The translations under genes were made by a program, and so were the position numbers. This document shows, in pieces, positions 4,895-16,007 of a stretch of 16,534 nucleotides of DNA (position 1 is its first letter; each line of letters begins with the position of its first letter). The notes under the pieces are model-generated. The model had not been told where the DNA came from. It did no database searches and saw nothing but the letters and a program-made list of their open reading frames with translations. Source of the stretch: Candidatus Heimdallarchaeota archaeon (lineage in GTDB: Archaea > Asgardarchaeota > Heimdallarchaeia > JABLTI01); assembly GCA_030614005.1 (NCBI GenBank), contig JAUWKS010000069.1:1-16534 (forward strand). Direction: 5' to 3'.

Positions 4895-5743
4895 ATGTAC
4901 AGTTACGTATCACTAAAAGTTGATTGCCCTCTTTGCGGGAAATCTTTAATGGATTCTGAAGTGCATGTAGATGACATTCCGAGTATTAAATTAAATATAT
5001 CCGAGAATGGTGAACGAGGTACGATAAACTTAAGCTCGTTCTATGGGAGTTATAATTATGAATGTGATATTGACATTCATGATGAATTAATCTATCAATT
5101 CTATTGTCCACACTGTATTGAAAATCTTAATTCTGAAGAAGAAAACTGTGACGTATGTTCTTCACAAGCAGTTACTTTGAAAATTAGAGAAGGTGGAGAA
5201 GTAAGGTTTTGTCCAAGAGCAGGTTGTAAAAATCACAATGTGGAATTTGTTGATCTTTCAAATGTTCTAAATTACTTAAAACAGAATATTGAGAAACCAG
5301 AGATTATTGAAATAAATAGCGCCGAAGAAAAAGCTCTCCAAAAAGAGTTAATTAGAAGCGGCACTTTCTTACGAATATACTGCCCTCATTGTAAAAAGAG
5401 TTTAGTCGAGAAAAATTCAGTCATGTTCAAAATTGTAAACCAAAAAAATGAGAAAGGTTATTTGACATTGAGCCCCTATCTGAACGTTTTTGCAGAGAAA
5501 TCTACAATCTTCGTTCCAAATGGTGCTGTTGCAAGTGATATCCTGTGTCCATTCTGTGAAAAATCATTGGTAGATCCAGAAGATTTATGCCAAGAATGTA
5601 AATCACCTACAGTAAATGTCAATGTTGCTGCTGTAAGAAAAATGATTGATTTTCATTTCTGTTCAATGAAAGGCTGCCATTGGCATAGTCTTAGTCAAGA
5701 AGATTTGCATCACGTTTTGTTGGAAGATAGTCTCAGTTGGTAA
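4895..5743 (+). CDS. Cys-rich hypothetical protein A, tandem duplication of an 8-Cys/1-His metal-binding domain
   Basis: 282 aa with two repeats of CxxC-x~50-CxxC-x10-CxxC-x17/20-Cx4Cx2H (C11-H114 and C163-H264). SD present; colinear paralog at 12428-13288. Confidence 0.9.
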   Translation: MYSYVSLKVDCPLCGKSLMDSEVHVDDIPSIKLNISENGERGTINLSSFYGSYNYECDIDIHDELIYQFYCPHCIENLNSEEENCDVCSSQAVTLKIREGGEVRFCPRAGCKNHNVEFVDLSNVLNYLKQNIEKPEIIEINSAEEKALQKELIRSGTFLRIYCPHCKKSLVEKNSVMFKIVNQKNEKGYLTLSPYLNVFAEKSTIFVPNGAVASDILCPFCEKSLVDPEDLCQECKSPTVNVNVAAVRKMIDFHFCSMKGCHWHSLSQEDLHHVLLEDSLSW

Positions 5744-5825
5744 AAAGGAACCAAAAGATAAGATAAGTGTCTACTAACAACGATTGAATTTATAGAAAAA
5801 ACATTGTTAAAGAGGAATTTTAAAA

Positions 5826-6365
5826 ATGACTATTGAAAGTAATAAAATTTCCACTCAAAGTTTTAAGCTCACTAGCTCTGCAATAAAAAGTATCACTAAA
5901 ATATTAGAGCATAATGATCACGACCCAAGAAATCTAATACAAATTTTACAGGAACTACAAGACGAATTTCATTATCTACCAGAACCAATCATTTCCTATA
6001 TTGCAAAACAACTGAAAATTTCAGAACATCACATTTTTGGAGTGGCTACTTTTTATTCTCAGTTCAAATTTATTGAACCGGGTAAACATATAATACGGGT
6101 TTGTATGGGGACTGCATGTCATGTAATGGGTGCTCAATCTTTATTGGATAAATTATCTCGAGAGCTTAAGATTATCTCTGGGGAAACCACGAAAGATGGT
6201 TTATTCAGTTTAGAAAGTGTGTACTGCTTAGGATGTTGTGCTTTAGCCCCTGTAATGGTTATTGACGATGAAGTCTTTGGAAGTATGACTGCTGCTAAAG
6301 TAAATAGAACTCTGAGAAAATATCAGAAACAGAACTCTGGTAATAAAGGGAGGAATAAGAAGTGA
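5826..6365 (+). CDS. nuoE: NuoE/HydC-like [2Fe-2S] subunit
   Basis: LIQILQELQ...YLP, GVATFYSQF, CMGTACH...CLGCCALAP (Cx4C...Cx3C); GAGGA SD at 5812-5816. Confidence 0.93.
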   Translation: MTIESNKISTQSFKLTSSAIKSITKILEHNDHDPRNLIQILQELQDEFHYLPEPIISYIAKQLKISEHHIFGVATFYSQFKFIEPGKHIIRVCMGTACHVMGAQSLLDKLSRELKIISGETTKDGLFSLESVYCLGCCALAPVMVIDDEVFGSMTAAKVNRTLRKYQKQNSGNKGRNKK

Positions 6366-8239
6366 TAGATTTTGATACGATGGTAAAGAAGGCAAAAGCT
6401 TCTTGGAATTCATTACATGATCAAAAGAAACCTGTGATTTTTGCTGGTGCAGCTTCTTGCGGACGAGCAGCTGGCATTTTACCAGTTATAGAACAACTAA
6501 AGGAACTTTCCAAAAAAATCCCTCTTGATATTATTGAAGTTGGTTGTATTGGTCCTTGCTATTTAGAACCTATTATCGGCATTCAGATAAAAGGAGAACC
6601 AACAATTCTCTATGCAAATGTTCAACCGATTCAGGCACAAGAATTAGTTGAGAATTATCTCGTTAAGAACGATCCTCAACCAGATAAAGCAATTGGAACA
6701 ATTGGAGAAGGTAAAATAGAAGGCATTCAATCATTTTGGGAACATCCAATGATCAAGGATCAAGTACGTATCGTTTTGAAAAATTGCGGAATAATCGATC
6801 CTGCAAACATTAATCATTATTTGGCAATGGATGGTTATCAAGGCCTAAAGCAAGCATTAGCAATGAAACCTGAAGATGTCATTGAGAAAGTGCAAGAATC
6901 TGGCTTAAGAGGGCGAGGTGGTGCAGGATTCCCCACTGGTTTGAAATGGAAGTTCACACGTTCCGAAAAGGAACCTGAAAAATACATTATTTGCAATGCA
7001 GACGAAGGTGACCCTGGTGCATTTATGAATCGTTCCTTAATAGAAGGCGACCCACATGCAGTTCTAGAAGGTATGGTGATTGGCGCTTATGCAATAGGAG
7101 CAAGTACAGGTTATGTCTATTGTCGAGCAGAATATCCATTAGCTATTGATCGATTTGAGAAAGCTATTGCTGCTATGAAAAAACATGGTTTATTGGGTGA
7201 GAATATACTAAATAGTGGTTTTTCATTTGATATTCAAATAAAGAAAGGTGCGGGTGCGTTCGTTTGTGGAGAAGAAACAGCATTAATTGCTTCAATAGAA
7301 GGAGAAAGAGGTATGCCAAGACAAAAACCACCCTATCCATCACAGGAAGGTGTCTGGGGTAAACCAACTGTTATTAACAACGTGGAAACGCTGGGAACCG
7401 TACCGGTTATTTTACGTGAAAAATCATCTTGGTATACTAAATATGGAACTAAGCAATCAAAAGGGACGAAAACATTCTCATTAGTTGGTAAGGTGAAACG
7501 CACTGGATTAATTGAGGTTCCTCTTGGCACAACATTGCGCAAAGTAATTTTTGATATAGGTGGAGGCATCAAAGAAGATAAGGGTTTCAAAGCCATTCAA
7601 GTAGGTGGTCCCTCCGGAGGAACAATCCCGTCTGCGTTTATAGATGAAACACTTGATTATGAAGAATTGACAAAGCTAGGAGCAATTATGGGTTCAGGTG
7701 GGGTAGTCGTTATTGATGAGGACACTTGTGTTGTTGATTTAGCAAAATATTTCCTGCAATTCATTCAAGCAGAATCTTGTGGGAAATGCGTTCCATGTCG
7801 TGTTGGAAATAAACAATTGCTTGATTTATTAGTAAAAATATCAAAAGGATTAGGAAATATCGATGATTTTGAACTACTTGAAGAGCTAGCTTTTACCATT
7901 TCACAAGGATCATTATGTGGTTTGGGAAAAACAGCACCAAATCCTGTTATCACTACTTTAACTTATTTCAGAGACGAATACAAAGCACATGTAATAGATA
8001 AAATATGCCCAGCAAAAGTTTGCAAAGACCTATTTCTATACCAAGTGGATGCTGAAACTTGTATCGGTTGCGAAATCTGCAGGAAACGATGTCCTGTGGG
8101 AGCTATTACCGGGGAAAAGAAACAACCCCACGTAATAGATTTTGAAAAATGCATTAAATGTGATGTGTGTTCAACGAATTGTCCCGCAAAAGCAATTCGT
8201 AAAATAGACAAGGTGAGTGTTAAAATTGTTAGTAATTAA
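6362..8239 (+). CDS. nuoF: NuoF/HydB-like FMN/NADH-binding subunit of the electron-bifurcating (HydB) architecture
   Basis: N-terminal thioredoxin-like Fe-S domain (SCG...GCIGPC), GLRGRGGAGFPTGLKW, CNADEGDPGAFM, GAGAFVCGEET, ESCGKCVPCR...SLCG, HVIDKICPAKVC and a C-terminal 2x[4Fe-4S] domain (CIGCEICRKRCP, CIKCDVCSTNCP). GTG start overlaps the upstream TGA; GGGAGG SD. Confidence 0.93.
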   Translation: MIDFDTMVKKAKASWNSLHDQKKPVIFAGAASCGRAAGILPVIEQLKELSKKIPLDIIEVGCIGPCYLEPIIGIQIKGEPTILYANVQPIQAQELVENYLVKNDPQPDKAIGTIGEGKIEGIQSFWEHPMIKDQVRIVLKNCGIIDPANINHYLAMDGYQGLKQALAMKPEDVIEKVQESGLRGRGGAGFPTGLKWKFTRSEKEPEKYIICNADEGDPGAFMNRSLIEGDPHAVLEGMVIGAYAIGASTGYVYCRAEYPLAIDRFEKAIAAMKKHGLLGENILNSGFSFDIQIKKGAGAFVCGEETALIASIEGERGMPRQKPPYPSQEGVWGKPTVINNVETLGTVPVILREKSSWYTKYGTKQSKGTKTFSLVGKVKRTGLIEVPLGTTLRKVIFDIGGGIKEDKGFKAIQVGGPSGGTIPSAFIDETLDYEELTKLGAIMGSGGVVVIDEDTCVVDLAKYFLQFIQAESCGKCVPCRVGNKQLLDLLVKISKGLGNIDDFELLEELAFTISQGSLCGLGKTAPNPVITTLTYFRDEYKAHVIDKICPAKVCKDLFLYQVDAETCIGCEICRKRCPVGAITGEKKQPHVIDFEKCIKCDVCSTNCPAKAIRKIDKVSVKIVSN

Positions 8240-9794
8240 TGGTAACCAAGTTCCCTACGAAGAAGGTAAAACTATATTAGAAATCGCTCGAGAGAACGAT
8301 ATCTACATTCCAACACTTTGCGCTCATGAACGATTGCCTTCTTTTGGTGCATGTCGTATGTGTATGGTGAAAGTGCATGGTAATAAAGGGTTCATGAATG
8401 CTTGCACAACCAAAGTAAAAGATGGAATGGTAGTCACAACAGAAAGCCTCGAGATTAAGAGATTACGACGTTCAATATTTGAGCTTATACTATCCGAGCA
8501 TCCGAGTAGCTGTATGATGTGCGCGCAAGCAGAACATTGTGATAAATTCAATTCGGGTATTATGAAAGCTGGAGTAATAACGGGTTGCAATACGTGCCCA
8601 AATAAAGAGACGTGTGAACTACGAAAAATTAGTGATGCATTGAACTTTAAAACAATAAGGTTCCCAATGTTTTACAAGCATCTACCAATAGAACGAAATG
8701 ACCCATTTTTTGATCGCGATTATAATCTATGTATCCATTGTGGGCGCTGTGTAAGAGTTTGCCAAGATGTAGAAGGTGCATCAATATTGGTGTTTACTCA
8801 CAGAGGACATGATACAAAGGTTGGTACTTCTTTTGAAAAACCACACATAGAAACTGATTGCAAGTTTTGCGGGCAATGTGTTGATGTATGCCCTACTGGA
8901 GCATTATCGGCCAGAAATCAGAAGTGGTATGAGACCCCCGACGAACAAGTGAGTACAACCTGTCTGTTGTGTGATAAAGGGTGTAGGTTCCAGATTGACG
9001 TTAAATGGGGAAGAATGGTTGGGATGAGACCTGATCCGGAATACAAAACTCTTGAGACGGGAATATGTGTCAAAGGAAGATTTTGTCTGCCAGTTTTACT
9101 AAACAATATGGATCGTTTAAGGTTCCCAAGAATTCGACGGAATTTCAAACTATATCCAACAAATTGGGATGAAGCTGCTGCAAAGGTGGCGGAGATATTT
9201 GAAAATTATCCACCAAGCAAAATAGCATTATATATATCTCCATTTCTCATTGATGAAGCAGATTATCTATTTACGAAAATTGCATCGGATTTGGAAATAA
9301 CAAATATCTTTCGAAGTAAAGAGGATTTAACTAATATAAACAAAAAAGGAATAAAAGTGCTCTATACAACAGAAGGACTGCCAAATCTTGACAAGTATAA
9401 GTCATTAGAGAAAATTATCCTACAAGAAGTATTTTCTGCAGATGGACATGATTTTGCTGACGTAATTTTACCTGCAGCAGCATTCACTGAAGAAACGGGA
9501 ACAATAACCACTAATCATGGAATAATGACTGTCGAAAAAGTTGTGAAAGCACCAGACCTAGCTCTAGAAGATTGGAAGATTGTAGCAAAAATAGCTCAAG
9601 AATTGGATCTTTCAGGTTTCAAATTTATAGAAACAAGTGAAATTCAAGGTGAAATGAAACGCCTCGGAATTAAAGGAAAAACTCGGGGCGTCGAAGAACA
9701 TTATTTGAAATACCGAGGAACAGCAATTGCCGACAAAGTACCGGATTTCAAAATTTTGATCGAAGCTCGAAAAGAACGAGACAAGCTGTGGTGA
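8217..9794 (+). CDS. NuoG/HydA/FdhA-like multi-Fe-S subunit with a collapsed molybdopterin-type domain and no H-cluster (non-catalytic)
   Basis: [2Fe-2S] (IPTLC...GACRMC...NAC), His-ligated cluster HPSSCMMC, 2x[4Fe-4S] (CIHCGRCVRVC, CKFCGQCVDVCP), FS0-type CLLCDKGC...CVKG and ADVILPAAAFTEETGT. Only 525 aa. The start may be the TTG at 8226, given AAGGTGA at 8210-8216. Confidence 0.85.
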   Translation: MLKLLVINGNQVPYEEGKTILEIARENDIYIPTLCAHERLPSFGACRMCMVKVHGNKGFMNACTTKVKDGMVVTTESLEIKRLRRSIFELILSEHPSSCMMCAQAEHCDKFNSGIMKAGVITGCNTCPNKETCELRKISDALNFKTIRFPMFYKHLPIERNDPFFDRDYNLCIHCGRCVRVCQDVEGASILVFTHRGHDTKVGTSFEKPHIETDCKFCGQCVDVCPTGALSARNQKWYETPDEQVSTTCLLCDKGCRFQIDVKWGRMVGMRPDPEYKTLETGICVKGRFCLPVLLNNMDRLRFPRIRRNFKLYPTNWDEAAAKVAEIFENYPPSKIALYISPFLIDEADYLFTKIASDLEITNIFRSKEDLTNINKKGIKVLYTTEGLPNLDKYKSLEKIILQEVFSADGHDFADVILPAAAFTEETGTITTNHGIMTVEKVVKAPDLALEDWKIVAKIAQELDLSGFKFIETSEIQGEMKRLGIKGKTRGVEEHYLKYRGTAIADKVPDFKILIEARKERDKLW

Positions 9795-9799
9795 TGTAA

Positions 9800-10657
9800 A
9801 TGTATGAAATTGTAGAAAAATATGAAGAAGTTCCAAATGTTCATCGTTTAGTTGTAAGAGAACCAAATATAGCCGCAAAAGCTCAACCAGGACAATTTGC
9901 AATTTTAATGGCGGACGAACAAAGTGAACGTGTGCCTATTTCAATAGTTGACACCAAAGATGATACATTTACAATGTTTATACTTGAACTAGGGATATCC
10001 TCTGCAAAAATCGTAAATATGAAAGAAGGAGATACGCTAGAAGCTGTTACTGGACCTCTTGGTATGCCTGCAGATTTAGGTAAATACGGTAGGGTTGTTC
10101 TTGGTGGAGGATGCTATGGCATTGGTGCTATCTATCCACTTGCGAGAGCTTTGAAAGAGCTTGGAAATGAAGTAGTAACGATAATAGAAGCACGAAGTGA
10201 TTATCTACTATATTTCCAAGAAGAATTGAAAGCAGTTTCGGATGAGTTTTTTGTTGCAACTTCTGATGGCACAGAAGGAACAAATGGACATGTACAAGAT
10301 GTTTTAGTAAAATTGATCCGAGATGGAGAAAGATTTGATCATGCAAAATTCATCGGATGTACGTATATGATGATGAATTGTTCGCATATTACATCACCAT
10401 ATAGGATCCCAACAAAAGTAGCATTGAACACAATAATGTTAGATGGTACAGGCATGTGCGGTTGTTGTCGAGTTTCTGTTGAAGGTGAAACAAAATTCGC
10501 TTGCGTTGATGGCCCAGAATTTGATGGGCATCATGTTGATTGGGATGAATTAATGAAACGAAAATCCTCCTACCTAATGGAGGAAATGCTTGCTTATCAA
10601 ACAGCACCCCATACATGCAAAGCATTAGAAAAAGCTTATTCTGGTGATTCAAAATGA
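9800..10657 (+). CDS. nfnA: NfnA (NfnS/SudB/PyrK-like) small FAD/[2Fe-2S] subunit, divergent copy 1
   Basis: PGQF, ERVPISIVD, GPLG and DGTGMCGCCRV...FACVDGPEFDG; GGTGA SD overlaps the upstream stop. Confidence 0.9.
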   Translation: MYEIVEKYEEVPNVHRLVVREPNIAAKAQPGQFAILMADEQSERVPISIVDTKDDTFTMFILELGISSAKIVNMKEGDTLEAVTGPLGMPADLGKYGRVVLGGGCYGIGAIYPLARALKELGNEVVTIIEARSDYLLYFQEELKAVSDEFFVATSDGTEGTNGHVQDVLVKLIRDGERFDHAKFIGCTYMMMNCSHITSPYRIPTKVALNTIMLDGTGMCGCCRVSVEGETKFACVDGPEFDGHHVDWDELMKRKSSYLMEEMLAYQTAPHTCKALEKAYSGDSK

Positions 10658-12147
10658 GCAAAAAGAAATCCCCCGCCCCTAAAAAAGAAAATGCAAAGCA
10701 ATCACCAAAAGATAAACCTGCTGAAAAACCTAAACGACCTCCAAGACCACCTCGCACAAAAATGCCAGAGCAACCCCCTGATATTCGAATAAAAAATTTT
10801 GTTGAGGTTCCATATGGTCTAACCCCTGAAGAAGCACAACTTGAAGCTGCTAGATGTATACAATGCAAACGACCGAAATGCGTAGAGGGTTGTCCTGTAA
10901 GTGTCCAAATACCTGAATTCATAGCTCTCATAAAAGACGGGCATTTTGCAGAAGCAGCTAGTAAGATAAAAGAAACAAATGTTTTACCTGCTGTTTGTGG
11001 TCGAGTTTGTCCGCAAGAAACACAATGTGAAGAAACCTGTATTTTAGGTCGTCGTGGTGAACCCGTGGCAATCGGTTATTTGGAAAGATTTTGCGCAGAT
11101 TATGAAAGGTTGGGTGGACATATTAAACTCCCAAAGAAGAAGAGACCCAATGATAAGAAAGTAGCAATTGTCGGCTCAGGACCCGCAGGTTTGACTGTAG
11201 CTGGTGATCTCTCATTGCTCGGTTACAAATTAACAATTTTTGAAGCATTTCACAAAGGTGGTGGAGTACTCGTTTATGGTATACCCGAGTTTAGATTGCC
11301 TAAGGAAATTGTTGAAACCGAAATAAACTATTTGGAACGTCTTGGTGTTGAGATTAAATACAATCACGTTATTGGTATGTGTAAATCTATAAACGAACTT
11401 CTGACAAAAGATGGTTTTGACGCCGTATTTATTGGTGTTGGTGCAGGACTACCGAGATTTTTGAACATTCCAGGGGAGAATCTAAATGGAGTATATTCAG
11501 CAAATGAATACCTTACTCGTTCGAATTTGATGAAAGCTTATCTTTATCCTACGTACAATACACCTATTATGAAAGGAAGAAAAGTAACTGTTGTAGGTGG
11601 AGGAAATGTGGCTATGGATTGTGCTCGAACCGCACTGAGACTCGGTTCAGATAAGGTAATGTTGGTCTATCGTAGAGCGAGAGAGCAAATGCCTGCAAGA
11701 GCTGAGGAAGTACATCATGCTGCTGAGGAGGGCATTGATTTTAGATTGCTTTCAAATCCCGTTGAAATTATTGGTGATGACACCGGAGTAGTGAAGCGAA
11801 TCAAATGCCAAAAATATCAGTTAGGAGAACCAGATGATTCTGGTAGAAGAAGACCTTTACCTATTGAAGGAGAATATTTTGAATTAGAAACTGATTTGGT
11901 GATCATTGCAATAGGGAATAATGCAAACCCCCTCATAAAAGCTACAACTCCCGATATTGAAACGAATAAATGGGGTAATATTATCGTAGATGAATTTGGT
12001 CGTACAAATAAAAATTTCGTCTATGCCGCGGGAGATATTGTCACAGGTGGAGCAACAGTTATCTCAGCAATGGGCGGTGGGAGAAAAGCTGCAACAGGTA
12101 TTCATAGAGATCTAATGGGAATAAAGGATGAAGATGTCCAAGATTAA
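10654..12147 (+). CDS. nfnB: NfnB (NfnL/SudA/GltD-like) large subunit, copy 1, with Lys/Pro-rich N-terminal extension
   Basis: RCIQCKRPKCVEGCP, CGRVCPQETQCEETC, GSGPAG, YGIPEFRLPK, GGGNVAMD, VYRR (NADP-type) and GDIVTGGATVISAM. ATGA overlap with nfnA. Confidence 0.93.
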   Translation: MSKKKSPAPKKENAKQSPKDKPAEKPKRPPRPPRTKMPEQPPDIRIKNFVEVPYGLTPEEAQLEAARCIQCKRPKCVEGCPVSVQIPEFIALIKDGHFAEAASKIKETNVLPAVCGRVCPQETQCEETCILGRRGEPVAIGYLERFCADYERLGGHIKLPKKKRPNDKKVAIVGSGPAGLTVAGDLSLLGYKLTIFEAFHKGGGVLVYGIPEFRLPKEIVETEINYLERLGVEIKYNHVIGMCKSINELLTKDGFDAVFIGVGAGLPRFLNIPGENLNGVYSANEYLTRSNLMKAYLYPTYNTPIMKGRKVTVVGGGNVAMDCARTALRLGSDKVMLVYRRAREQMPARAEEVHHAAEEGIDFRLLSNPVEIIGDDTGVVKRIKCQKYQLGEPDDSGRRRPLPIEGEYFELETDLVIIAIGNNANPLIKATTPDIETNKWGNIIVDEFGRTNKNFVYAAGDIVTGGATVISAMGGGRKAATGIHRDLMGIKDEDVQD

Positions 12148-12150
12148 ATG

Positions 12151-12189
12151 ATTGTAGATGCAAAAAGTTTCTACAATTGTTATTTTTTT
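12151..12189 (+). terminator. Hairpin plus T-tract ending operon 1
   Basis: ATTGTAGA (12151-12158) pairs with TCTACAAT (12170-12177) around an 11-nt loop, followed by T7 at 12183-12189, just after the nfnB stop. Confidence 0.6.
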
Positions 12190-12427
12190 ATCACTTTTAG
12201 CTTATCCATTATTGAGTAGCTAATAATCTGAGATTAAATTAAAATGTTTTTAATATTAACTTGTCATTGGATACTTAAACCAATTAAATTACTATTTATT
12301 TAGACACATACATATTATTTTTATAGTATAACCGTGAAGATAATTTGAATTGATAATCTCAACATCTCTCTCAAAAAAGAGGTCCAATCTAAATGCTCGT
12401 TTTAATAAAAATTAAAGGAGATTGAAA

Positions 12428-13288
12428 ATGCACGACTTTATAGCACTAAAACTAAATTGTCCGCTCTGTGAAAAATCACTAATGGACACTCAAACATTAA
12501 TCGATAATCTACCCGGAGTAAAATTAAATATATCCTTTGATGATCAACAAGGAGTGATTCATCTGAGCGCTATTTATGGTAGCTATAATTATACTACCAA
12601 CATCAAAATTCCTTTAGGTAAAGAAGCTACTTTCTCTTGTCCCCATTGCAAAGAACCAATTGTTTCTGAAATAAAATGCGAGGTATGTTCTGCTCATTCT
12701 GTTCCATTGAAAATCGAAGATAATGGAATTGTTAGAATATGTTCTCGTGCCGGTTGTAAAAACCATTATGTGGAATTTGAAGATTTGTCCCATGCTCTAG
12801 AACACTTCTATGTGTATTTTGATTATGGTGATGCAAGCAGAGTAAAGAAACCATTAACAGAATCCAATGCGACACCAGATGCTGATAAAGAAATAGTGAA
12901 ATCAGGTACATTCCTTAGAACATATTGCCCTCATTGCGAAGACAGCCTCTATAAAAATAGAGCAATTGAATTTAAGATAACTGGCAAAGATGGAGAAGAA
13001 GGTATATTACAATTAAGTCCCTTTCTCAATGTGTTTACAAACGAATCAACTTTTTACATTCCCGAGGGAGAACCTGTAAAGAATGTTAGATGTCCTCATT
13101 GCGATGAAAGTCTTTTGCGTAAAGGTGAGGATTGTCCAGAATGTGGAGAAGCAATTGTAAGTGTATCTGTTGCTGCCCTATCAAAAATAATTGATTTCTA
13201 TTTTTGTTCAAAGAAAGGGTGTCATTGGCATGGAATGAGTCAAGAAGATATAGATGATATAATCATTGAGGATAGCAGTGAGTGGTAA
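12428..13288 (+). CDS. Cys-rich hypothetical protein B, paralog of protein A (two 8-Cys/1-His domains)
   Basis: Same ligand pattern twice and colinear with 4895-5743. AAAGGAG at 12414-12420 favours the ATG at 12428 over the TTG at 12422. Confidence 0.9.
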   Translation: MHDFIALKLNCPLCEKSLMDTQTLIDNLPGVKLNISFDDQQGVIHLSAIYGSYNYTTNIKIPLGKEATFSCPHCKEPIVSEIKCEVCSAHSVPLKIEDNGIVRICSRAGCKNHYVEFEDLSHALEHFYVYFDYGDASRVKKPLTESNATPDADKEIVKSGTFLRTYCPHCEDSLYKNRAIEFKITGKDGEEGILQLSPFLNVFTNESTFYIPEGEPVKNVRCPHCDESLLRKGEDCPECGEAIVSVSVAALSKIIDFYFCSKKGCHWHGMSQEDIDDIIIEDSSEW

Positions 13289-13291
13289 TAA

Positions 13292-14119
13292 ATGCATCAA
13301 ATAATTCGTAAACAAGAAATGGCAAAAGGTACAATTGTACGATTTGATGTTCGTGCTCCAGAAATAGCAAAAAAAGCAAAACCTGGACAATTTGTGATTG
13401 TAAGACTTACGGAAACTGGTGAAAGAATACCACTAACAATTGCAGATAAGGACAGCTTTGAAGGGTATATAACACTCATTTTTCAGGTAGTTGGAAAAAC
13501 AACTGCAATAATGAGAACGTTAAATGAAGGTGACGCAATAAAGGACCTTGTTGGGCCACTAGGAAAACCAGCAGATATACAAAAAGTTGGCACAGTAATA
13601 ATGGTCGGTGGTGGAACTGGTGTCGCAATATTACATCACATTGCGAAAGCATTCAAAGAAGCAGGTAATACTGTGATTAGCATTATCGGTGCACGCGAAA
13701 AAGACTTGTTAATCCTTGAAAACGAAATGAGAATAATTTCCGATGAACTGGTTATAACTACTGATGATGGAAGCTATGGACAACTTGGTTTTGTTACAGA
13801 GCCCTTACAAAGATATCTAGATGAACGTTATGACATTAAGGAAGTATATGCTATTGGTCCAATTCCAATGATGAAATTCGTTTGCCGATTGACAAAGAAA
13901 TATAATGTACCAACAATGGTCAGCCTTAATCCAATAATGATTGATGGCACCGGCATGTGCGGTGGTTGTCGTGTGACTGTTGGAAACGAAACAAAGTTCT
14001 GCTGTGTTGATGGTCCTGACTTCAATGGGCATGAAGTAGACTTTGATGAACTAACAAAACGAAATTCTATGTATCTTAAGGAAGAAAAAGATGCACTATT
14101 ATTTTCAATAAGAGGTTAA
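13292..14119 (+). CDS. nfnA: NfnA small subunit, canonical copy 2
   Basis: PGQFVIVR, ERIPLTIAD, GPLG, VGGGTG, IIGAR, TTDDG, IGPIPMM and SLNPIMIDGTGMCGGCRV...CVDGPDF. Confidence 0.94.
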   Translation: MHQIIRKQEMAKGTIVRFDVRAPEIAKKAKPGQFVIVRLTETGERIPLTIADKDSFEGYITLIFQVVGKTTAIMRTLNEGDAIKDLVGPLGKPADIQKVGTVIMVGGGTGVAILHHIAKAFKEAGNTVISIIGAREKDLLILENEMRIISDELVITTDDGSYGQLGFVTEPLQRYLDERYDIKEVYAIGPIPMMKFVCRLTKKYNVPTMVSLNPIMIDGTGMCGGCRVTVGNETKFCCVDGPDFNGHEVDFDELTKRNSMYLKEEKDALLFSIRG

Positions 14120-14123
14120 ACCA

Positions 14124-16007
14124 ATGGTAGATTATGATGTAAAATATCTAAAATTTAAAACCTACCTGAACACCTATTGTCCGCACTGCAGAAATAGCTT
14201 TAACAGAAAAGAAAAAGAAATGGACAAACTCAAGTTCATAGGTGTCTATAAAGGTGAAGATTTTGAATTAACAATAAGCGCTTATCTAGACGTTTTTGAG
14301 GCTCAAGCTTCAATACCTTTGAAAGAAGGAATGATTCTTGAAGATTGCAAATGCCCTCATTGCAAACAAAGTCTTGTGACCTCTGAAAAGAAATGTGGAG
14401 AATGCGGCTCTGCTGTAGGTGAAGTAATTATCAGTGCCTTTTCAAAACTAATTCCTTTCTTCACTTGTTTGAAATATGGTTGTGAATGGCATGGCTTAAC
14501 TAAAGCGGATGAACGAAGAATCAAACTAAAAATTCCTAGACAAGAAATGCCCGAACAAGATCAAGTACTAAGAATTCATAATTTCAATGAGGTACCCTAT
14601 GGACTAACCACTGAATTAGCTTTATTAGAAGCTGGTAGATGCTTACAATGCAAGCAACCAAAATGTGTTGAAGGTTGTCCAGTAAATATTGATATCCCTG
14701 AATTTATTCGATTAATCGCTGAAGAGAAAATTGAAGATGCAGTAATGAAAGTAAAAGAAACAAACCTTTTTCCAGCAATTTGTGGTCGAGTCTGTCCACA
14801 AGAGAATCAGTGTGAAGAACTTTGTATTTTAGGAAAGCGAGATTATCCCGTTGCTATTGGTCATCTTGAGAGATTTATTGCTGATTATGAACGTCGTATG
14901 GATTTCAGGAAATTACCCAGAATTGAAGCGAAAAACAATAAACGAATAGCTGTTGTCGGGTCTGGACCTGCTGGTTTAACCGTTGCAGCTGATTTAATTC
15001 AATTGGGTTACAGCATAACAATTTATGAGGCACTTCACGAACCTGGTGGGGTACTCGTTTACGGCATCCCTGAATTTCGATTGCCAAAATCAATTGTTCA
15101 TTATGAAATTGAGTTCTTAAAGAGTCTTGGATGTCGAATTGAAACAAATCATGTGATTGGTTATATCTATAGCATTGCTGAATTGCTTGAAAATTACGAT
15201 GCAGTATTTTTAGGTGTCGGTGCAGGTTTACCACGATTTATGAATATTACAGGTGAAAATCTGTGCAATGTGTTTTCTGCTAATGAATATCTAACCCGAA
15301 TGAATCTCATGAAAGCGTACAAATTTCCCGAATATGACACTCCAATGCCCGAAGGTAATGATATTGTTGTGATTGGTGGTGGAAACGTAGCAATGGATTG
15401 TGCTAGAAATGCAAAACGAACCGGAGCAATAAATGTTACCGTTGTCTATCGTCGATCGAGAAAGGAATTACCTGCAAGAAATGAAGAAATTCGTCATGCA
15501 GAAGAAGAAGGCATTCATTTCAAGTTGCTAACGAATCCAGTTAGATTTGTAGGTGATGATCGAAATTGGTTGAAAGGAATAGAATGTGTTCTGATGGAAC
15601 TTGGTGAACCTGATGATTCCGGGAGAAGAAGACCTATCCCAATTGAGAATTCAAACATAACTATACCCTGTGATATAGCAATTGTTGCTATTGGTAATAG
15701 ACCAAATCCTATTCTCTTCAATACGACACCCAATTTACAAGGCAATAAATGGGGTTGTATAGAAGTTAATCAAGAAACAATGGAAACATCGATAGAGTAT
15801 GTTTATGCTGGAGGAGATATTGTTACTGGAGCAGCAACAGTAATCTCTGCTATGGGTCAAGGACGTATCGCAGCAAATGCAATGCATAAAAAATTGTCTA
15901 GACCTGCGAGTAAAACAAAACCCAAGCAAAAACCTGAAAAAGCTGTAGCGACTACTCCAAAACCCAAACCAAAAGCTAAATCTACATCTACCCGAAAGAA
16001 AATTTAG
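14124..16007 (+). CDS. nfnB: NfnB large subunit, copy 2, fused to an N-terminal 8-Cys/1-His domain and carrying a Lys/Pro-rich C-terminal tail
   Basis: Residues 19-123 repeat the Cys-rich domain. From about residue 138 it has all NfnB motifs (RCLQCKQPKCVEGCP, CGRVCPQENQCEELC, GSGPAG, GIPEFRLPK, GGGNVAMD, VYRRS, GDIVTGAATV). Confidence 0.93.
   Translation: MVDYDVKYLKFKTYLNTYCPHCRNSFNRKEKEMDKLKFIGVYKGEDFELTISAYLDVFEAQASIPLKEGMILEDCKCPHCKQSLVTSEKKCGECGSAVGEVIISAFSKLIPFFTCLKYGCEWHGLTKADERRIKLKIPRQEMPEQDQVLRIHNFNEVPYGLTTELALLEAGRCLQCKQPKCVEGCPVNIDIPEFIRLIAEEKIEDAVMKVKETNLFPAICGRVCPQENQCEELCILGKRDYPVAIGHLERFIADYERRMDFRKLPRIEAKNNKRIAVVGSGPAGLTVAADLIQLGYSITIYEALHEPGGVLVYGIPEFRLPKSIVHYEIEFLKSLGCRIETNHVIGYIYSIAELLENYDAVFLGVGAGLPRFMNITGENLCNVFSANEYLTRMNLMKAYKFPEYDTPMPEGNDIVVIGGGNVAMDCARNAKRTGAINVTVVYRRSRKELPARNEEIRHAEEEGIHFKLLTNPVRFVGDDRNWLKGIECVLMELGEPDDSGRRRPIPIENSNITIPCDIAIVAIGNRPNPILFNTTPNLQGNKWGCIEVNQETMETSIEYVYAGGDIVTGAATVISAMGQGRIAANAMHKKLSRPASKTKPKQKPEKAVATTPKPKPKAKSTSTRKKI

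What the first reader, a model, noticed from the sequence alone, without database searches (positions are those of the whole stretch)
4925..14492. Uncharacterised 8-Cys/1-His domain repeated five times across an electron-bifurcation island
Seen: a ~105-aa unit CxxC-x~50-CxxC-x9/10-CxxC-x17/20-Cx4Cx2H with a central LS(x)Y/F motif. It occurs twice in protein A, twice in protein B and once fused to NfnB2. Two subtypes are distinguishable. Type 1 has LSxxYGSYNY and ends GCKNH. Type 2 has LS[PA][YF]L[ND]VF-like text and ends GCxWH. Every copy heads or is fused into an Nfn-containing operon. Inference: eight or nine ligands imply two metal sites (Zn, rubredoxin-like Fe or Fe-S). It could be a dedicated electron carrier replacing ferredoxin, a redox sensor, or a docking adaptor. 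I recall similar sequences fused to NuoE-like proteins in anaerobic bacteria but cannot verify this, and I know of no functional characterisation.
Basis: partly seen in the sequence, partly recalled or inferred. Interest (0 to 1): 0.85.

Follow-up and report, generated by a model that had tools for sequence, protein, structure and literature searches.

The report
Unnamed eight-cysteine module on Nfn enzymes
A conserved, still unnamed ~120-residue metal-binding module occurs five times beside or inside the genes of NADH/NADPH/ferredoxin electron-bifurcating enzymes in this Asgard archaeon and in hundreds of anaerobic bacteria, so it is probably an unrecognised extra part of these enzymes, most likely a zinc-pinned docking or control piece, not an electron carrier.

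Summary
Five copies of a ~110-125-aa module carrying 8 Cys and 1 His lie in this window. Two are in protein A, two in protein B and one is fused to the N-terminus of NfnB2. The genome holds no other copy. Pfam and NCBIfam have no model for it, and a confident AlphaFold model (pLDDT 93.8) has no clear neighbour among solved structures.

Context is very consistent. In 72 of 74 informative genome loci the two-module protein sits directly next to NfnA/NfnB or NuoE/NuoF genes. In 55 of these it forms a fixed trio: two-module protein, NfnA, and a long NfnB with the fused module. One such fusion heads the same five-gene operon as window operon 1.

The module is not restricted to redox enzymes. It is inserted in the ATPase domain of histidine kinases and fused to a cyclase and a Mur-ligase-like protein.

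Ligand swaps and loss patterns indicate two sequential Cys4 sites of zinc-ribbon type. I favour a Zn-structural adaptor or gate at the ferredoxin port. An Fe-based carrier or a redox switch remains open.

This scan found the same module earlier on another genome (e1-3342296).

The parts
4895..5743 (+). Protein A (282 aa): type-1 module (aa 1-125, nt 4895-5269), a low-confidence (partly disordered) linker, and type-2 module (aa 150-282, nt 5342-5740). It heads operon 1.
   Evidence: ORF. Alignments. AlphaFold two-domain model with pLDDT 83.8 and a low-confidence linker (pLDDT below 50 at residues 133-142). Orthologues are 56-94% identical in other Heimdall/Asgard MAGs at the same position.
5826..6365 (+). 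NuoE/HydC/NfnC-like [2Fe-2S] thioredoxin-like subunit
   Evidence: PF01257, E 6.8e-50
6362..8239 (+). NuoF/HydB-like FMN/NADH subunit with a C-terminal 2x[4Fe-4S] ferredoxin-like domain
   Evidence: PF01512, PF10589 and Fer4
8217..9794 (+). NuoG-like Fe-S subunit with a truncated molybdopterin domain and no H-cluster
   Evidence: PF13510, PF22117, PF04879 and partial PF00384
9800..10657 (+). NfnA1 (NfnS-type small subunit)
   Evidence: PF10418. The DGTGMCGxCR motif is read from the translation.
10654..12147 (+). NfnB1 (NfnL/GltD-type). It has no fused module but carries a Lys/Pro-rich N-terminal tail.
   Evidence: PF14691 and PF07992. Alignment.
12422..13288 (+). Protein B (288 aa): type-1 module (nt 12422-12802) plus type-2 module (nt 12884-13285). 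It heads operon 2, and its stop lies 3 nt before the NfnA2 start.
   Evidence: It is the first gene of a trio conserved in 50 fully extracted loci.
13292..14119 (+). NfnA2 (NfnS-type small subunit)
   Evidence: PF10418 and PF00175. It is 72-89% identical to bacterial and archaeal trio partners.
14124..16007 (+). Long NfnB2 (627 aa). A type-2 module (aa 10-135, nt 14151-14528; ligands C19 to H123 at nt 14178-14492) is fused directly before the 2x[4Fe-4S] domain (Fer4_20, aa 150-259). FAD/NADPH domains and a Lys/Pro-rich tail follow.
   Evidence: The fusion is conserved in 276 90%-identity clusters.

Best explanation
The unit is an undescribed all-beta module of about 110-125 residues. It is held together by two sequential Cys4 metal sites of the zinc-ribbon (knuckle) type. 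Site I is formed by Cys1-4. Site II is formed by Cys5-8, with a neighbouring His that can stand in as a ligand.

In this Heimdall-type Asgard archaeon it occurs as a type-1 plus type-2 tandem in two small proteins (A and B) and as a type-2 copy fused to NfnB2.

I read it as a permanent accessory subunit or domain of NAD(P)H-linked iron-sulfur flavoenzyme complexes built from NuoE/NuoF and NfnA/NfnB (GltD-like) parts.

Its two enzyme fusions both put it at the low-potential (ferredoxin) end. One fusion lies immediately before the 2x[4Fe-4S] domain of NfnB. The other lies immediately after the mobile [2Fe-2S] domain of NuoE-like subunits.

The most likely metal is zinc, and the most likely job is structural. 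It would dock, gate or hold together partners at the ferredoxin port. It could also link the NfnSL-type and NuoEF-type modules that are encoded side by side. I do not think it carries electrons.

Shown: the conservation, the ligand pattern, the gene neighbourhood and the fusions. Inferred: physical binding, the identity of the metal, and the role at the ferredoxin port.
For: (1) Repeat and conservation. There are five copies and all eight Cys are invariant. All eight Cys are present in nearly all complete copies among 169 domain hits from 150 cluster representatives.

(2) Two independent sites in sequence. P0252 keeps C1-C4 but lost C5-C8 and the His together.

(3) Ligand swaps typical of structural Zn sites. 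When C6 is replaced by S, G or K the His is kept. When C6 is D the His is lost. Histidine-kinase copies have CPK-GH in place of CPxC in knuckle 1. The only sequence similarities are to Zn knuckles: DZR, Zn_ribbon_6/YfgJ and the MetRS knuckle, all below cut-off.

(4) Gene neighbourhood. 267 species genomes encode a relative. Of the 80 best loci, 53 are the trio (two-module protein, NfnA, long NfnB), 11 head NuoE-NuoF operons, 2 do both, 6 are convergent with NfnB, 6 are too short to judge and 2 are other.

(5) Tight spacing. The median gap to NfnA is 42.5 nt, and it is 3 nt in the window.

(6) Rosetta-stone fusions. The NfnB N-terminal fusion is conserved in 276 clusters. NuoE C-terminal fusions exist. 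One of them heads NuoF-NuoG'-NfnA-NfnB, the same gene set as window operon 1.

(7) Position at the ferredoxin end. Docking in the literature places ferredoxin near the distal [4Fe-4S] of NfnB (PMC6405883). In NfnABC, ferredoxin binds between the mobile NfnC (NuoE-like) C-terminal domain and the NfnB ferredoxin-like domain (PMC12018979).

(8) Occurrence in non-redox proteins. It is a histidine-kinase ATPase-domain insertion, a cyclase/AAA_16 fusion and a Mur-ligase-like fusion. This fits a general Zn-scaffolded interaction or control module better than an electron carrier.
Against: No metal analysis, no co-purification data and no structure of a complex exist. Knuckle Cys4 sites can hold Fe, as in rubredoxin, and sequence alone cannot exclude this. 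All hosts are anaerobes with Fe-rich enzymes. The conserved aromatic residues next to the sites (YGSYNY, GCxWH) would also suit electron transfer. The kinase and cyclase fusions fit a sensor at least as well as a passive adaptor. The physical position at the ferredoxin port is inferred from chain ends in homologous structures and was not modelled here.
Confidence: 0.45

Rival explanations
1. Redox-active relay or carrier. Each module would bind Fe (two rubredoxin-like Fe(Cys)4 centres) or small Fe-S clusters. The fused copy would extend the electron wire of NfnB. The free two-module proteins would act as a dedicated protein electron acceptor or donor, in place of or ahead of ferredoxin or flavodoxin. 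They could also wire the neighbouring NfnSL-type and NuoEF-type enzymes together.
For: There are eight invariant Cys in knuckles, some of CPxC form, and rubredoxin knuckles are CxxCG and CPxCG. Both enzyme fusions sit exactly at the ferredoxin end (with PMC6405883 and PMC12018979). The protein accompanies two unrelated Nfn types whose shared substrates (NADPH, NAD and ferredoxin) include ferredoxin as the only protein. A and B are acidic, with pI 5.1-5.2, like many carriers. One single-module relative sits between an Nfn-Bfu-type fusion protein and a rubrerythrin gene.
Against: Cys4 to Cys3His/Asp swaps and the dispensable His are typical of structural Zn and are rare in rubredoxin centres. 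There is no rubredoxin or ferredoxin Pfam hit. Mononuclear Fe(Cys)4 centres usually sit near 0 mV, which would short-circuit the low-potential branch (general knowledge). The module is also inserted in a histidine-kinase ATPase domain and fused to a cyclase and a Mur-ligase-like protein, where a carrier makes little sense.
Confidence: 0.2
2. Sensor or switch. The module would be a regulatory input domain, either a Zn-thiolate or Fe-based redox switch or a small-ligand binder. It would turn the attached enzyme, kinase or cyclase on or off, for example by closing the ferredoxin port on oxidation.
For: The same module is inserted in the HATPase_c domain of sensor kinases (622-aa ORF: sCache-HAMP-HisKA-[module]-HATPase_c) that lie in redox gene clusters. 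It is also fused to an adenylate cyclase/AAA_16 protein and to a response-regulator/NuoE-like protein. CPHC-type CxxC pairs are classical thiol-switch elements (general knowledge). The weak but recurrent fold resemblances are to Zn-pinned ligand-binding beta-tent domains: RLR C-terminal domains at Z 3.0-3.6, plus Mss4, cereblon and yippee.
Against: There is no direct evidence of switching. Three modules per NfnAB, with fixed type-1 and type-2 identities and 66% mean column identity, look more like fixed architecture than a sensor. The fold matches are all below the level that means anything (Z below 4).
Confidence: 0.2
3. Maturation factor. A and B would be transient chaperones that deliver metal or Fe-S clusters, or help assemble the complexes, and would be absent from the mature enzyme.
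For: The gene is first in the operon. One single-module relative lies inside a hyp (hydrogenase maturation) cluster next to hypA. Some database names call relatives HypA-like.
Against: The conserved in-frame fusions to NfnB and NuoE make the module a permanent part of the enzyme. HypA Pfam matches are only sub-threshold knuckle hits.
Confidence: 0.08
4. Nucleic-acid-binding zinc-ribbon regulator of the operon.
For: Zn ribbons often bind nucleic acids. There is weak shape similarity to RLR C-terminal domains, topoisomerase I Zn ribbons and Rpb9.
Against: The proteins are acidic. Fusion into enzyme subunits argues against it. No helix-turn-helix or other DNA-binding domain is present. All structural scores are insignificant.
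Confidence: 0.03

Closest known systems
Double zinc ribbon proteins (Pfam PF12773 DZR; PF07191 Zn_ribbon_6, E. coli YfgJ, PDB 2JNE)
   Same: Both use pairs of CxxC knuckles that bind two metal ions in a small beta module. These families give the best sequence hits, which cover only Cys3-Cys6 or Cys5-Cys8.
   Different: The scores are below the Pfam gathering cut-offs (25.9 against 27.3, and 24.3 against 25). Those families are 45-67 residues long. This module is 110-125 residues, with a roughly 55-residue beta insertion between knuckles 1 and 2, the LS..Y/F motif and a Cx4CxxH last knuckle. The solved YfgJ is not a structural neighbour.
Zinc knuckles of the methionyl-tRNA synthetase connective peptide (PF09334 region 109-199; PDB 1MEA)
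   Same: CPxC-x9/10-CxxC has the same spacing as the MetRS Zn knuckle. This is why databases call relatives 'class I tRNA ligase family protein'.
   Different: The match is local and below threshold (18.2 against 20.1 bits). There is no synthetase domain, and the database name is an annotation artefact.
Rubredoxin / rubredoxin-like Fe(Cys)4 domains
   Same: Both have two knuckles per metal site, some of CPxC form, and both occur with flavoprotein reductases in anaerobes.
   Different: There is no Pfam rubredoxin match. The fold is larger with two sites. Cys-to-His/Asp swaps occur. The metal is unknown.
Structural Zn sites of Bfu-type enzymes (B2 and B5 sites of NfnB/HydB in NfnABC, Stn and HydABC)
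   Same: Both are Cys/His Zn sites in the same enzyme world. In Bfu enzymes they act as hinges or scaffolds near the ferredoxin-binding region, not as redox centres (PMC12018979).
   Different: Those sites lie within NuoF-like subunits and are not a separate module. No homology to them was detected.
Characterised Nfn enzymes: NfnAB/NfnSL (T. maritima, P. furiosus) and NfnABC/StnABC (C. saccharolyticus, T. sibiricus, S. ovata)
   Same: NfnA1/2, NfnB1/2 and NuoE/F/G' in the window have the same domains and cluster motifs.
   Different: No eight-Cys protein or domain is mentioned in the passages I retrieved from the NfnABC/Nfn-Bfu structure paper (PMC12018979, term searches only). The 2019 Nfn review lists patterns A-D, and none has it.
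Zn-pinned beta-tent domains (RIG-I/LGP2/MDA5 C-terminal domain, Mss4, yippee, cereblon CULT)
   Same: Both are all-beta, with an N-terminal CxxC and a distant Cx4C/CxxC that pin the sheets. These are the only solved domains that align over nearly the whole module (83-91 residues).
   Different: Z is only 2.4-3.6 with rmsd 4.8-6.3 A, and Foldseek probability is at most 0.33. This is not evidence of relationship.

Membership tests
Double zinc ribbon (PF12773 DZR / PF07191 Zn_ribbon_6) | Score above the Pfam gathering cut-off | tested here: not met
   The best scores are 25.9 bits against 27.3 (DZR) and 24.3 against 25 (Zn_ribbon_6), both on protein B. Protein A scores lower.
Double zinc ribbon (PF12773 DZR / PF07191 Zn_ribbon_6) | Two metal sites, each made of two CxxC-type knuckles | tested here: met
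   The pattern is CxxC..CxxC then CxxC..Cx4C, invariant in the five copies and nearly universal in 169 domain hits. Site II was lost as a block in P0252. Metal binding itself is not testable here.
Rubredoxin | Pfam rubredoxin match and the ~50-residue CxxCG...CPxCG fold | tested here: not met
   No rubredoxin family appears among the Pfam hits at E up to 0.1. No rubredoxin appears among the structural neighbours.
Rubredoxin | Redox-active Fe(Cys)4 centre | not testable with these tools
   This needs metal analysis and spectroscopy.
2x[4Fe-4S] or [2Fe-2S] ferredoxin | CxxCxxCxxxCP or plant/thioredoxin-like [2Fe-2S] motifs and a Pfam Fer4/Fer2 match | tested here: not met
   Proteins A, B and the NfnB2 N-domain have no Fer4 or Fer2 hit and no such motif.
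Class I tRNA ligase (MetRS), the name given by some databases | Catalytic Rossmann domain (PF09334 full length, above cut-off) | tested here: not met
   Only profile positions 109-199 of 391 match, at 18.2 bits against a cut-off of 20.1.
Beta-tent fold (RLR C-terminal domain, Mss4, yippee, CULT) | Significant structural superposition over the domain | tested here: inconclusive
   The best Z is 3.4-3.6 over 86-88 residues at rmsd 5.6 A. Foldseek probability is at most 0.33.
NfnAB (NfnSL-type) for NfnA2/NfnB2, the host of the fused module | NfnA: FNR-like fold plus a DGTGMCGxCR [2Fe-2S] motif. NfnB: an N-terminal 2x[4Fe-4S] domain plus FAD/NADPH domains. | tested here: met
   PF10418 and PF00175 match in NfnA2. 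PF14691 (E 6e-42) and PF07992 match in NfnB2. The motif is read in the translation.
NfnAB (NfnSL-type) for NfnA2/NfnB2, the host of the fused module | [quoted passage not shown] | not testable with these tools
   This needs an enzyme assay. No member of the long-NfnB clade has been characterised, as far as the literature searches show.

The most novel reading that the evidence does not exclude
The eight-Cys modules are redox-active (Fe-bearing) stations. The free two-module proteins and the fused copy would form a protein electron wire or a dedicated carrier. This would couple an NfnSL-type enzyme and a NuoEF(Bfu)-type enzyme, which are encoded side by side, into one supercomplex. Soluble ferredoxin would be bypassed in Asgard archaea and in Bacteroidota, Ignavibacteria and Cloacimonadota. 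That would be a new kind of low-potential electron hand-over in flavin-based electron bifurcation.
Probability: 0.15. Interest if true: 0.85.

Novelty: new variant of a known kind. Interest (0 to 1): 0.62.

Why it matters
Nfn transhydrogenases set the NADH/NADPH/ferredoxin balance of anaerobes, and their structures are used as the textbook case of flavin-based electron bifurcation. All characterised Nfn enzymes lack this module.

A large clade carries three copies of it per enzyme: 276 clusters of long NfnB, and 267 species genomes with the two-module protein. The clade is spread over Asgard archaea, Bacteroidota (including Ignavibacteria), Cloacimonadota and others. The same module also accompanies the unrelated NuoEF-type (Bfu) enzymes.

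If it binds at the ferredoxin port, it changes how partner choice, gating or regulation of bifurcation should be thought about in these lineages. It would also give the field a directly testable third component.

It deserves a family model as well. At present databases label it 'class I tRNA ligase family protein', 'HypA' or 'topoisomerase Zn finger', and some gene callers cut it off NfnB.

Tried and rejected
- Complex prediction of protein B with NfnB2 residues 1-582, using my own 51-row alignments. The score was 0.01 against a mark of 0.32. The tool's verdict was 'no answer', which is evidence neither for nor against binding. A three-chain job including NfnA2 did not fit the 1000-residue limit.
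- Foldseek against PDB with the two-domain model (best E 0.045) and with the single-domain model (best E 0.2). VIA-align against 48,161 chains gave a best Z of 3.6 and 3.9, with none at Z 5 or more. No known fold could be assigned. This does not prove the fold is new.
- A profile search of PDB sequences gave only generic knuckle hits: C2H2 artefacts, YfgJ, Hakai, topoisomerase I and MetRS.
I therefore could not measure S-S distances or the distance between the two sites. Site assignment rests on loss patterns only.
- Literature searches for an Nfn accessory, an NfnB extension or a NuoE zinc ribbon found nothing relevant.
- The annotation 'class I tRNA ligase family protein' is rejected. It reflects only a local sub-threshold knuckle match.
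- P0235, a NuoE fusion, lay on a 2-kb contig and gave no usable context.
- One script call returned no answer and was repeated.

Full report
**What is in the window.** The + strand from 4895 to 16007 carries two operons.
- Operon 1 is protein A (282 aa), a NuoE-like subunit, a NuoF-like subunit, a NuoG-like Fe-S subunit without an active site, NfnA1 and NfnB1.
- Operon 2 is protein B (288 aa), NfnA2 and a long NfnB2 (627 aa).
- Upstream lie housekeeping archaeal genes: a 2-oxoacid:ferredoxin oxidoreductase subunit, NMD3, DUF424, aIF2-beta/eIF5-like and a purine nucleoside phosphorylase.
- The nearest relatives of A, B and the synteny are in Heimdallarchaeota/Asgard MAGs.

Aligning the two halves of A, the two halves of B and the first 135 residues of NfnB2 gives 16 invariant columns.

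The two subtypes are real. Type 1 copies are 52% identical to each other. Type 2 copies are 50% identical, and the fused copy is 37-38% identical to type 2. Across types the identity is 21-27%. The subtype motifs are conserved in 51 orthologous two-module proteins.

A profile of the five copies finds exactly these five in the 3.6-Mb genome, at E 1e-48 to 3e-56. The next hit is 7e-4.

**Is it a known family?** Pfam and NCBIfam give no hit above cut-off. They give only sub-threshold matches of single knuckles to DZR, Zn_ribbon_6, the MetRS connective-peptide knuckle and archaeal small Zn-finger proteins. This explains database names such as 'class I tRNA ligase family protein', 'HypA' or 'topoisomerase Zn finger' for relatives.

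AlphaFold gives two all-beta domains joined by a low-confidence (partly disordered) linker for protein A (pLDDT 83.8). It gives a very confident single-domain model (pLDDT 93.8, pTM 0.86).

Neither Foldseek nor an exhaustive VIA-align scan of PDB representatives finds a convincing neighbour. The best Foldseek E-values are 0.045 and 0.2, and the best Z scores are 3.6 and 3.9. The only solved domains that align end to end are the Zn-pinned C-terminal domains of RIG-I-like receptors, at Z 3.0-3.6, which is not evidence of relationship.

In AlphaFold DB and the ESM Atlas the fold matches only uncharacterised proteins, NuoE fusions and histidine kinases. Literature searches found no description of it. 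The 2019 Nfn review lists four architectures of Nfn, and none has this module.

The same scan had already flagged the module on another genome (e1-3342296). My results agree with that follow-up and extend it.

**Family size and architectures.** A profile search of 1.84 billion cluster representatives finds 363 clusters. Most are stand-alone single modules of 115-160 aa, of type-1 character. About a dozen are two-module proteins.

Fusions include the following:
- Modules at the C-terminus of NuoE-like [2Fe-2S] subunits: P0195, P0196, P0220, P0235, P0261 and P0264.
- A Mur-ligase-like protein and an adenylate cyclase/AAA_16 protein.
- The long NfnB with the N-terminal module, which forms 276 clusters at 90% identity. 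These are annotated as 'NADPH-dependent glutamate synthase'.
- Histidine kinases. The ESM Atlas shape hits to kinases were verified by sequence. In Bacteroidota genomes a 622-aa sCache-HAMP-HisKA kinase carries the module at about residues 431-543, inserted in the HATPase_c domain.

**Ligands.** Across 169 domain hits the eight Cys are almost universal. The His is replaced in about 20 cases, by R, N, P, S, Y, Q, D, F, V or E.

One homologue, P0252, keeps Cys1-4 and lost Cys5-8 and the His together. The two sites are therefore sequential: site I is Cys1-4 and site II is Cys5-8.

Cys6 is the most variable ligand. When it is S, G or K the His is retained. When it is D the His is lost. This suggests the His lies next to site II and can substitute as a ligand. 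Kinase copies have CPK-GH in place of CPxC in knuckle 1 and Q in place of the His.

Such Cys4/Cys3His/Cys3Asp interchange is typical of structural zinc sites. This last statement is general knowledge, not tested here.

**Context.** A genome-collection scan found relatives of the two-module protein in 267 species genomes. I labelled the neighbours in the 80 best loci by tblastn with the window's proteins.
- 53 are the trio: two-module protein, NfnA2-like, then long NfnB with the fused module.
- 11 head NuoE-NuoF operons. Some of these are the NuoG/GltD-fused NfnABC/Stn type with no NfnSL genes at all.
- 2 do both.
- 6 lie convergent to an NfnB gene.
- 6 are too short to judge.
- 2 are other.

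So 72 of 74 informative loci touch Nfn or NuoE genes.

In 50 fully extracted trios the median gap from the two-module gene to NfnA is 42.5 nt, and in the window it is 3 nt. The trio is very conserved between this archaeon and bacteria: NfnA2 72-89%, the NfnB2 core 68-83% and the fused module 52-73% identical. This points to lateral transfer.

Single-module relatives sit in related contexts:
- After a 1233-aa NuoG/GltD fusion protein and before a rubrerythrin gene.
- Near a NuoE-like gene and a glutamate dehydrogenase gene.
- In a hyp cluster beside a NuoE-NuoF fusion.

A NuoE-module fusion (P0261) heads NuoF-NuoG'-NfnA-NfnB. This is the same gene set as window operon 1, with the module moved from a separate protein onto NuoE. 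Another NuoE-module fusion heads a NuoF/GltD fusion, a small Fe-S protein and a GltB-like gene.

**How it most likely works.** The fusions make the module a permanent part of these enzymes. They also place it at one particular end.

In NfnB2 it is joined by about 15 residues to the canonical NfnB N-terminus. That N-terminus leads straight into the 2x[4Fe-4S] domain (Fer4_20, aa 150-259). Docking studies place ferredoxin near the distal cluster of that domain (PMC6405883).

In NuoE fusions it follows the thioredoxin-like [2Fe-2S] domain. In the NfnABC cryo-EM work this domain is the mobile C-terminal domain, whose swing opens the ferredoxin site between NfnC and NfnB (PMC12018979).

I therefore read the module as an accessory piece at the low-potential port. 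The knuckle chemistry, the ligand swaps, the similarity only to Zn knuckles and its use inside kinases, a cyclase and a Mur-ligase-like protein make a zinc-pinned interaction or control module the most likely reading (confidence 0.45).

A redox-active Fe relay or carrier (0.2) and a redox or ligand switch (0.2) remain open. A transient maturation factor (0.08) and a nucleic-acid-binding regulator (0.03) are unlikely, because of the fusions and the acidic pI.

Binding, the identity of the metal and the position in the complex are all inferred. The one complex prediction I could run gave no verdict.

I rate it a new variant of a known kind, namely a new zinc-ribbon-based domain family serving as an undescribed third component of known enzymes. 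Interest is 0.62.

Noticed in passing
L121:1991-3859 (G042:C34) and L122 (G058:C28): Bacteroidota sensor histidine kinases (sCache_3_2-HAMP-HisKA) carry the eight-Cys module inserted inside the HATPase_c domain, at about residues 431-543 of 622. The gene cluster also has an NrfD/cytochrome c7 fusion, two response regulators fused to glycine-cleavage-H-like domains and a 4Fe-4S dicluster protein.
   Followed up: partly
window 12422-16007 compared with L001, L002, L008 and L014-L084: Operon 2 (B-NfnA2-NfnB2) of this Asgard archaeon is 45-89% identical, gene by gene, to trios in Bacteroidales, Ignavibacteria, Cloacimonadota and one Bathyarchaeia-labelled MAG. This points to lateral transfer between archaea and bacteria. 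No tree was built, so the direction is unknown.
   Followed up: partly
L014-L084 (for example L014:12673-17507, L028, L030, L045): In many bacterial loci the trio is directly followed or preceded by NuoE, NuoF and a NuoG-Nterm/GltD/NuoG fusion. That is the NfnABC/Stn (Bfu) type of transhydrogenase. Two unrelated Nfn-type enzymes are therefore encoded as one cluster.
   Followed up: partly
window 10654-10800 and 15870-16007: NfnB1 has a roughly 40-residue Lys/Pro-rich low-complexity N-terminal tail where NfnB2 has the eight-Cys module. NfnB2 ends in a roughly 45-residue Lys/Pro/Thr-rich tail. Bacterial orthologues lack most of this tail.
   Followed up: no
L003:10214-11581 compared with L002:9791-11581: The same long NfnB gene is called as 455 aa in the NCBI record but as 596 aa in the ENA record. 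Some gene callers therefore cut off the fused eight-Cys module, which hides the fusion in databases.
   Followed up: no
L004:11094-11882 and the same position in L009-L011: Other Heimdall/Asgard genomes carry a second two-module paralogue (262 aa) between protein A and NuoE. Their operon 1 therefore has four modules, not two.
   Followed up: no
window 8217-9794: The NuoG-like subunit keeps the N-terminal Fe-S domains and only fragments of the molybdopterin domain, with no H-cluster or Mo/W active site. The same 526-535-aa form recurs in Asgard loci and in bacterial loci L101 and L102.
   Followed up: no
A5 alignment; window 13268-13285: The two-module proteins end in an acidic tail with an invariant C-terminal Trp (consensus LEDSLEW). 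This would suit insertion into a partner pocket.
   Followed up: no
L001:11615-12118: In a complete 3.78-Mb Bacteroidota-like genome a flavodoxin gene lies directly after the trio on the opposite strand. It is a possible physiological partner.
   Followed up: no
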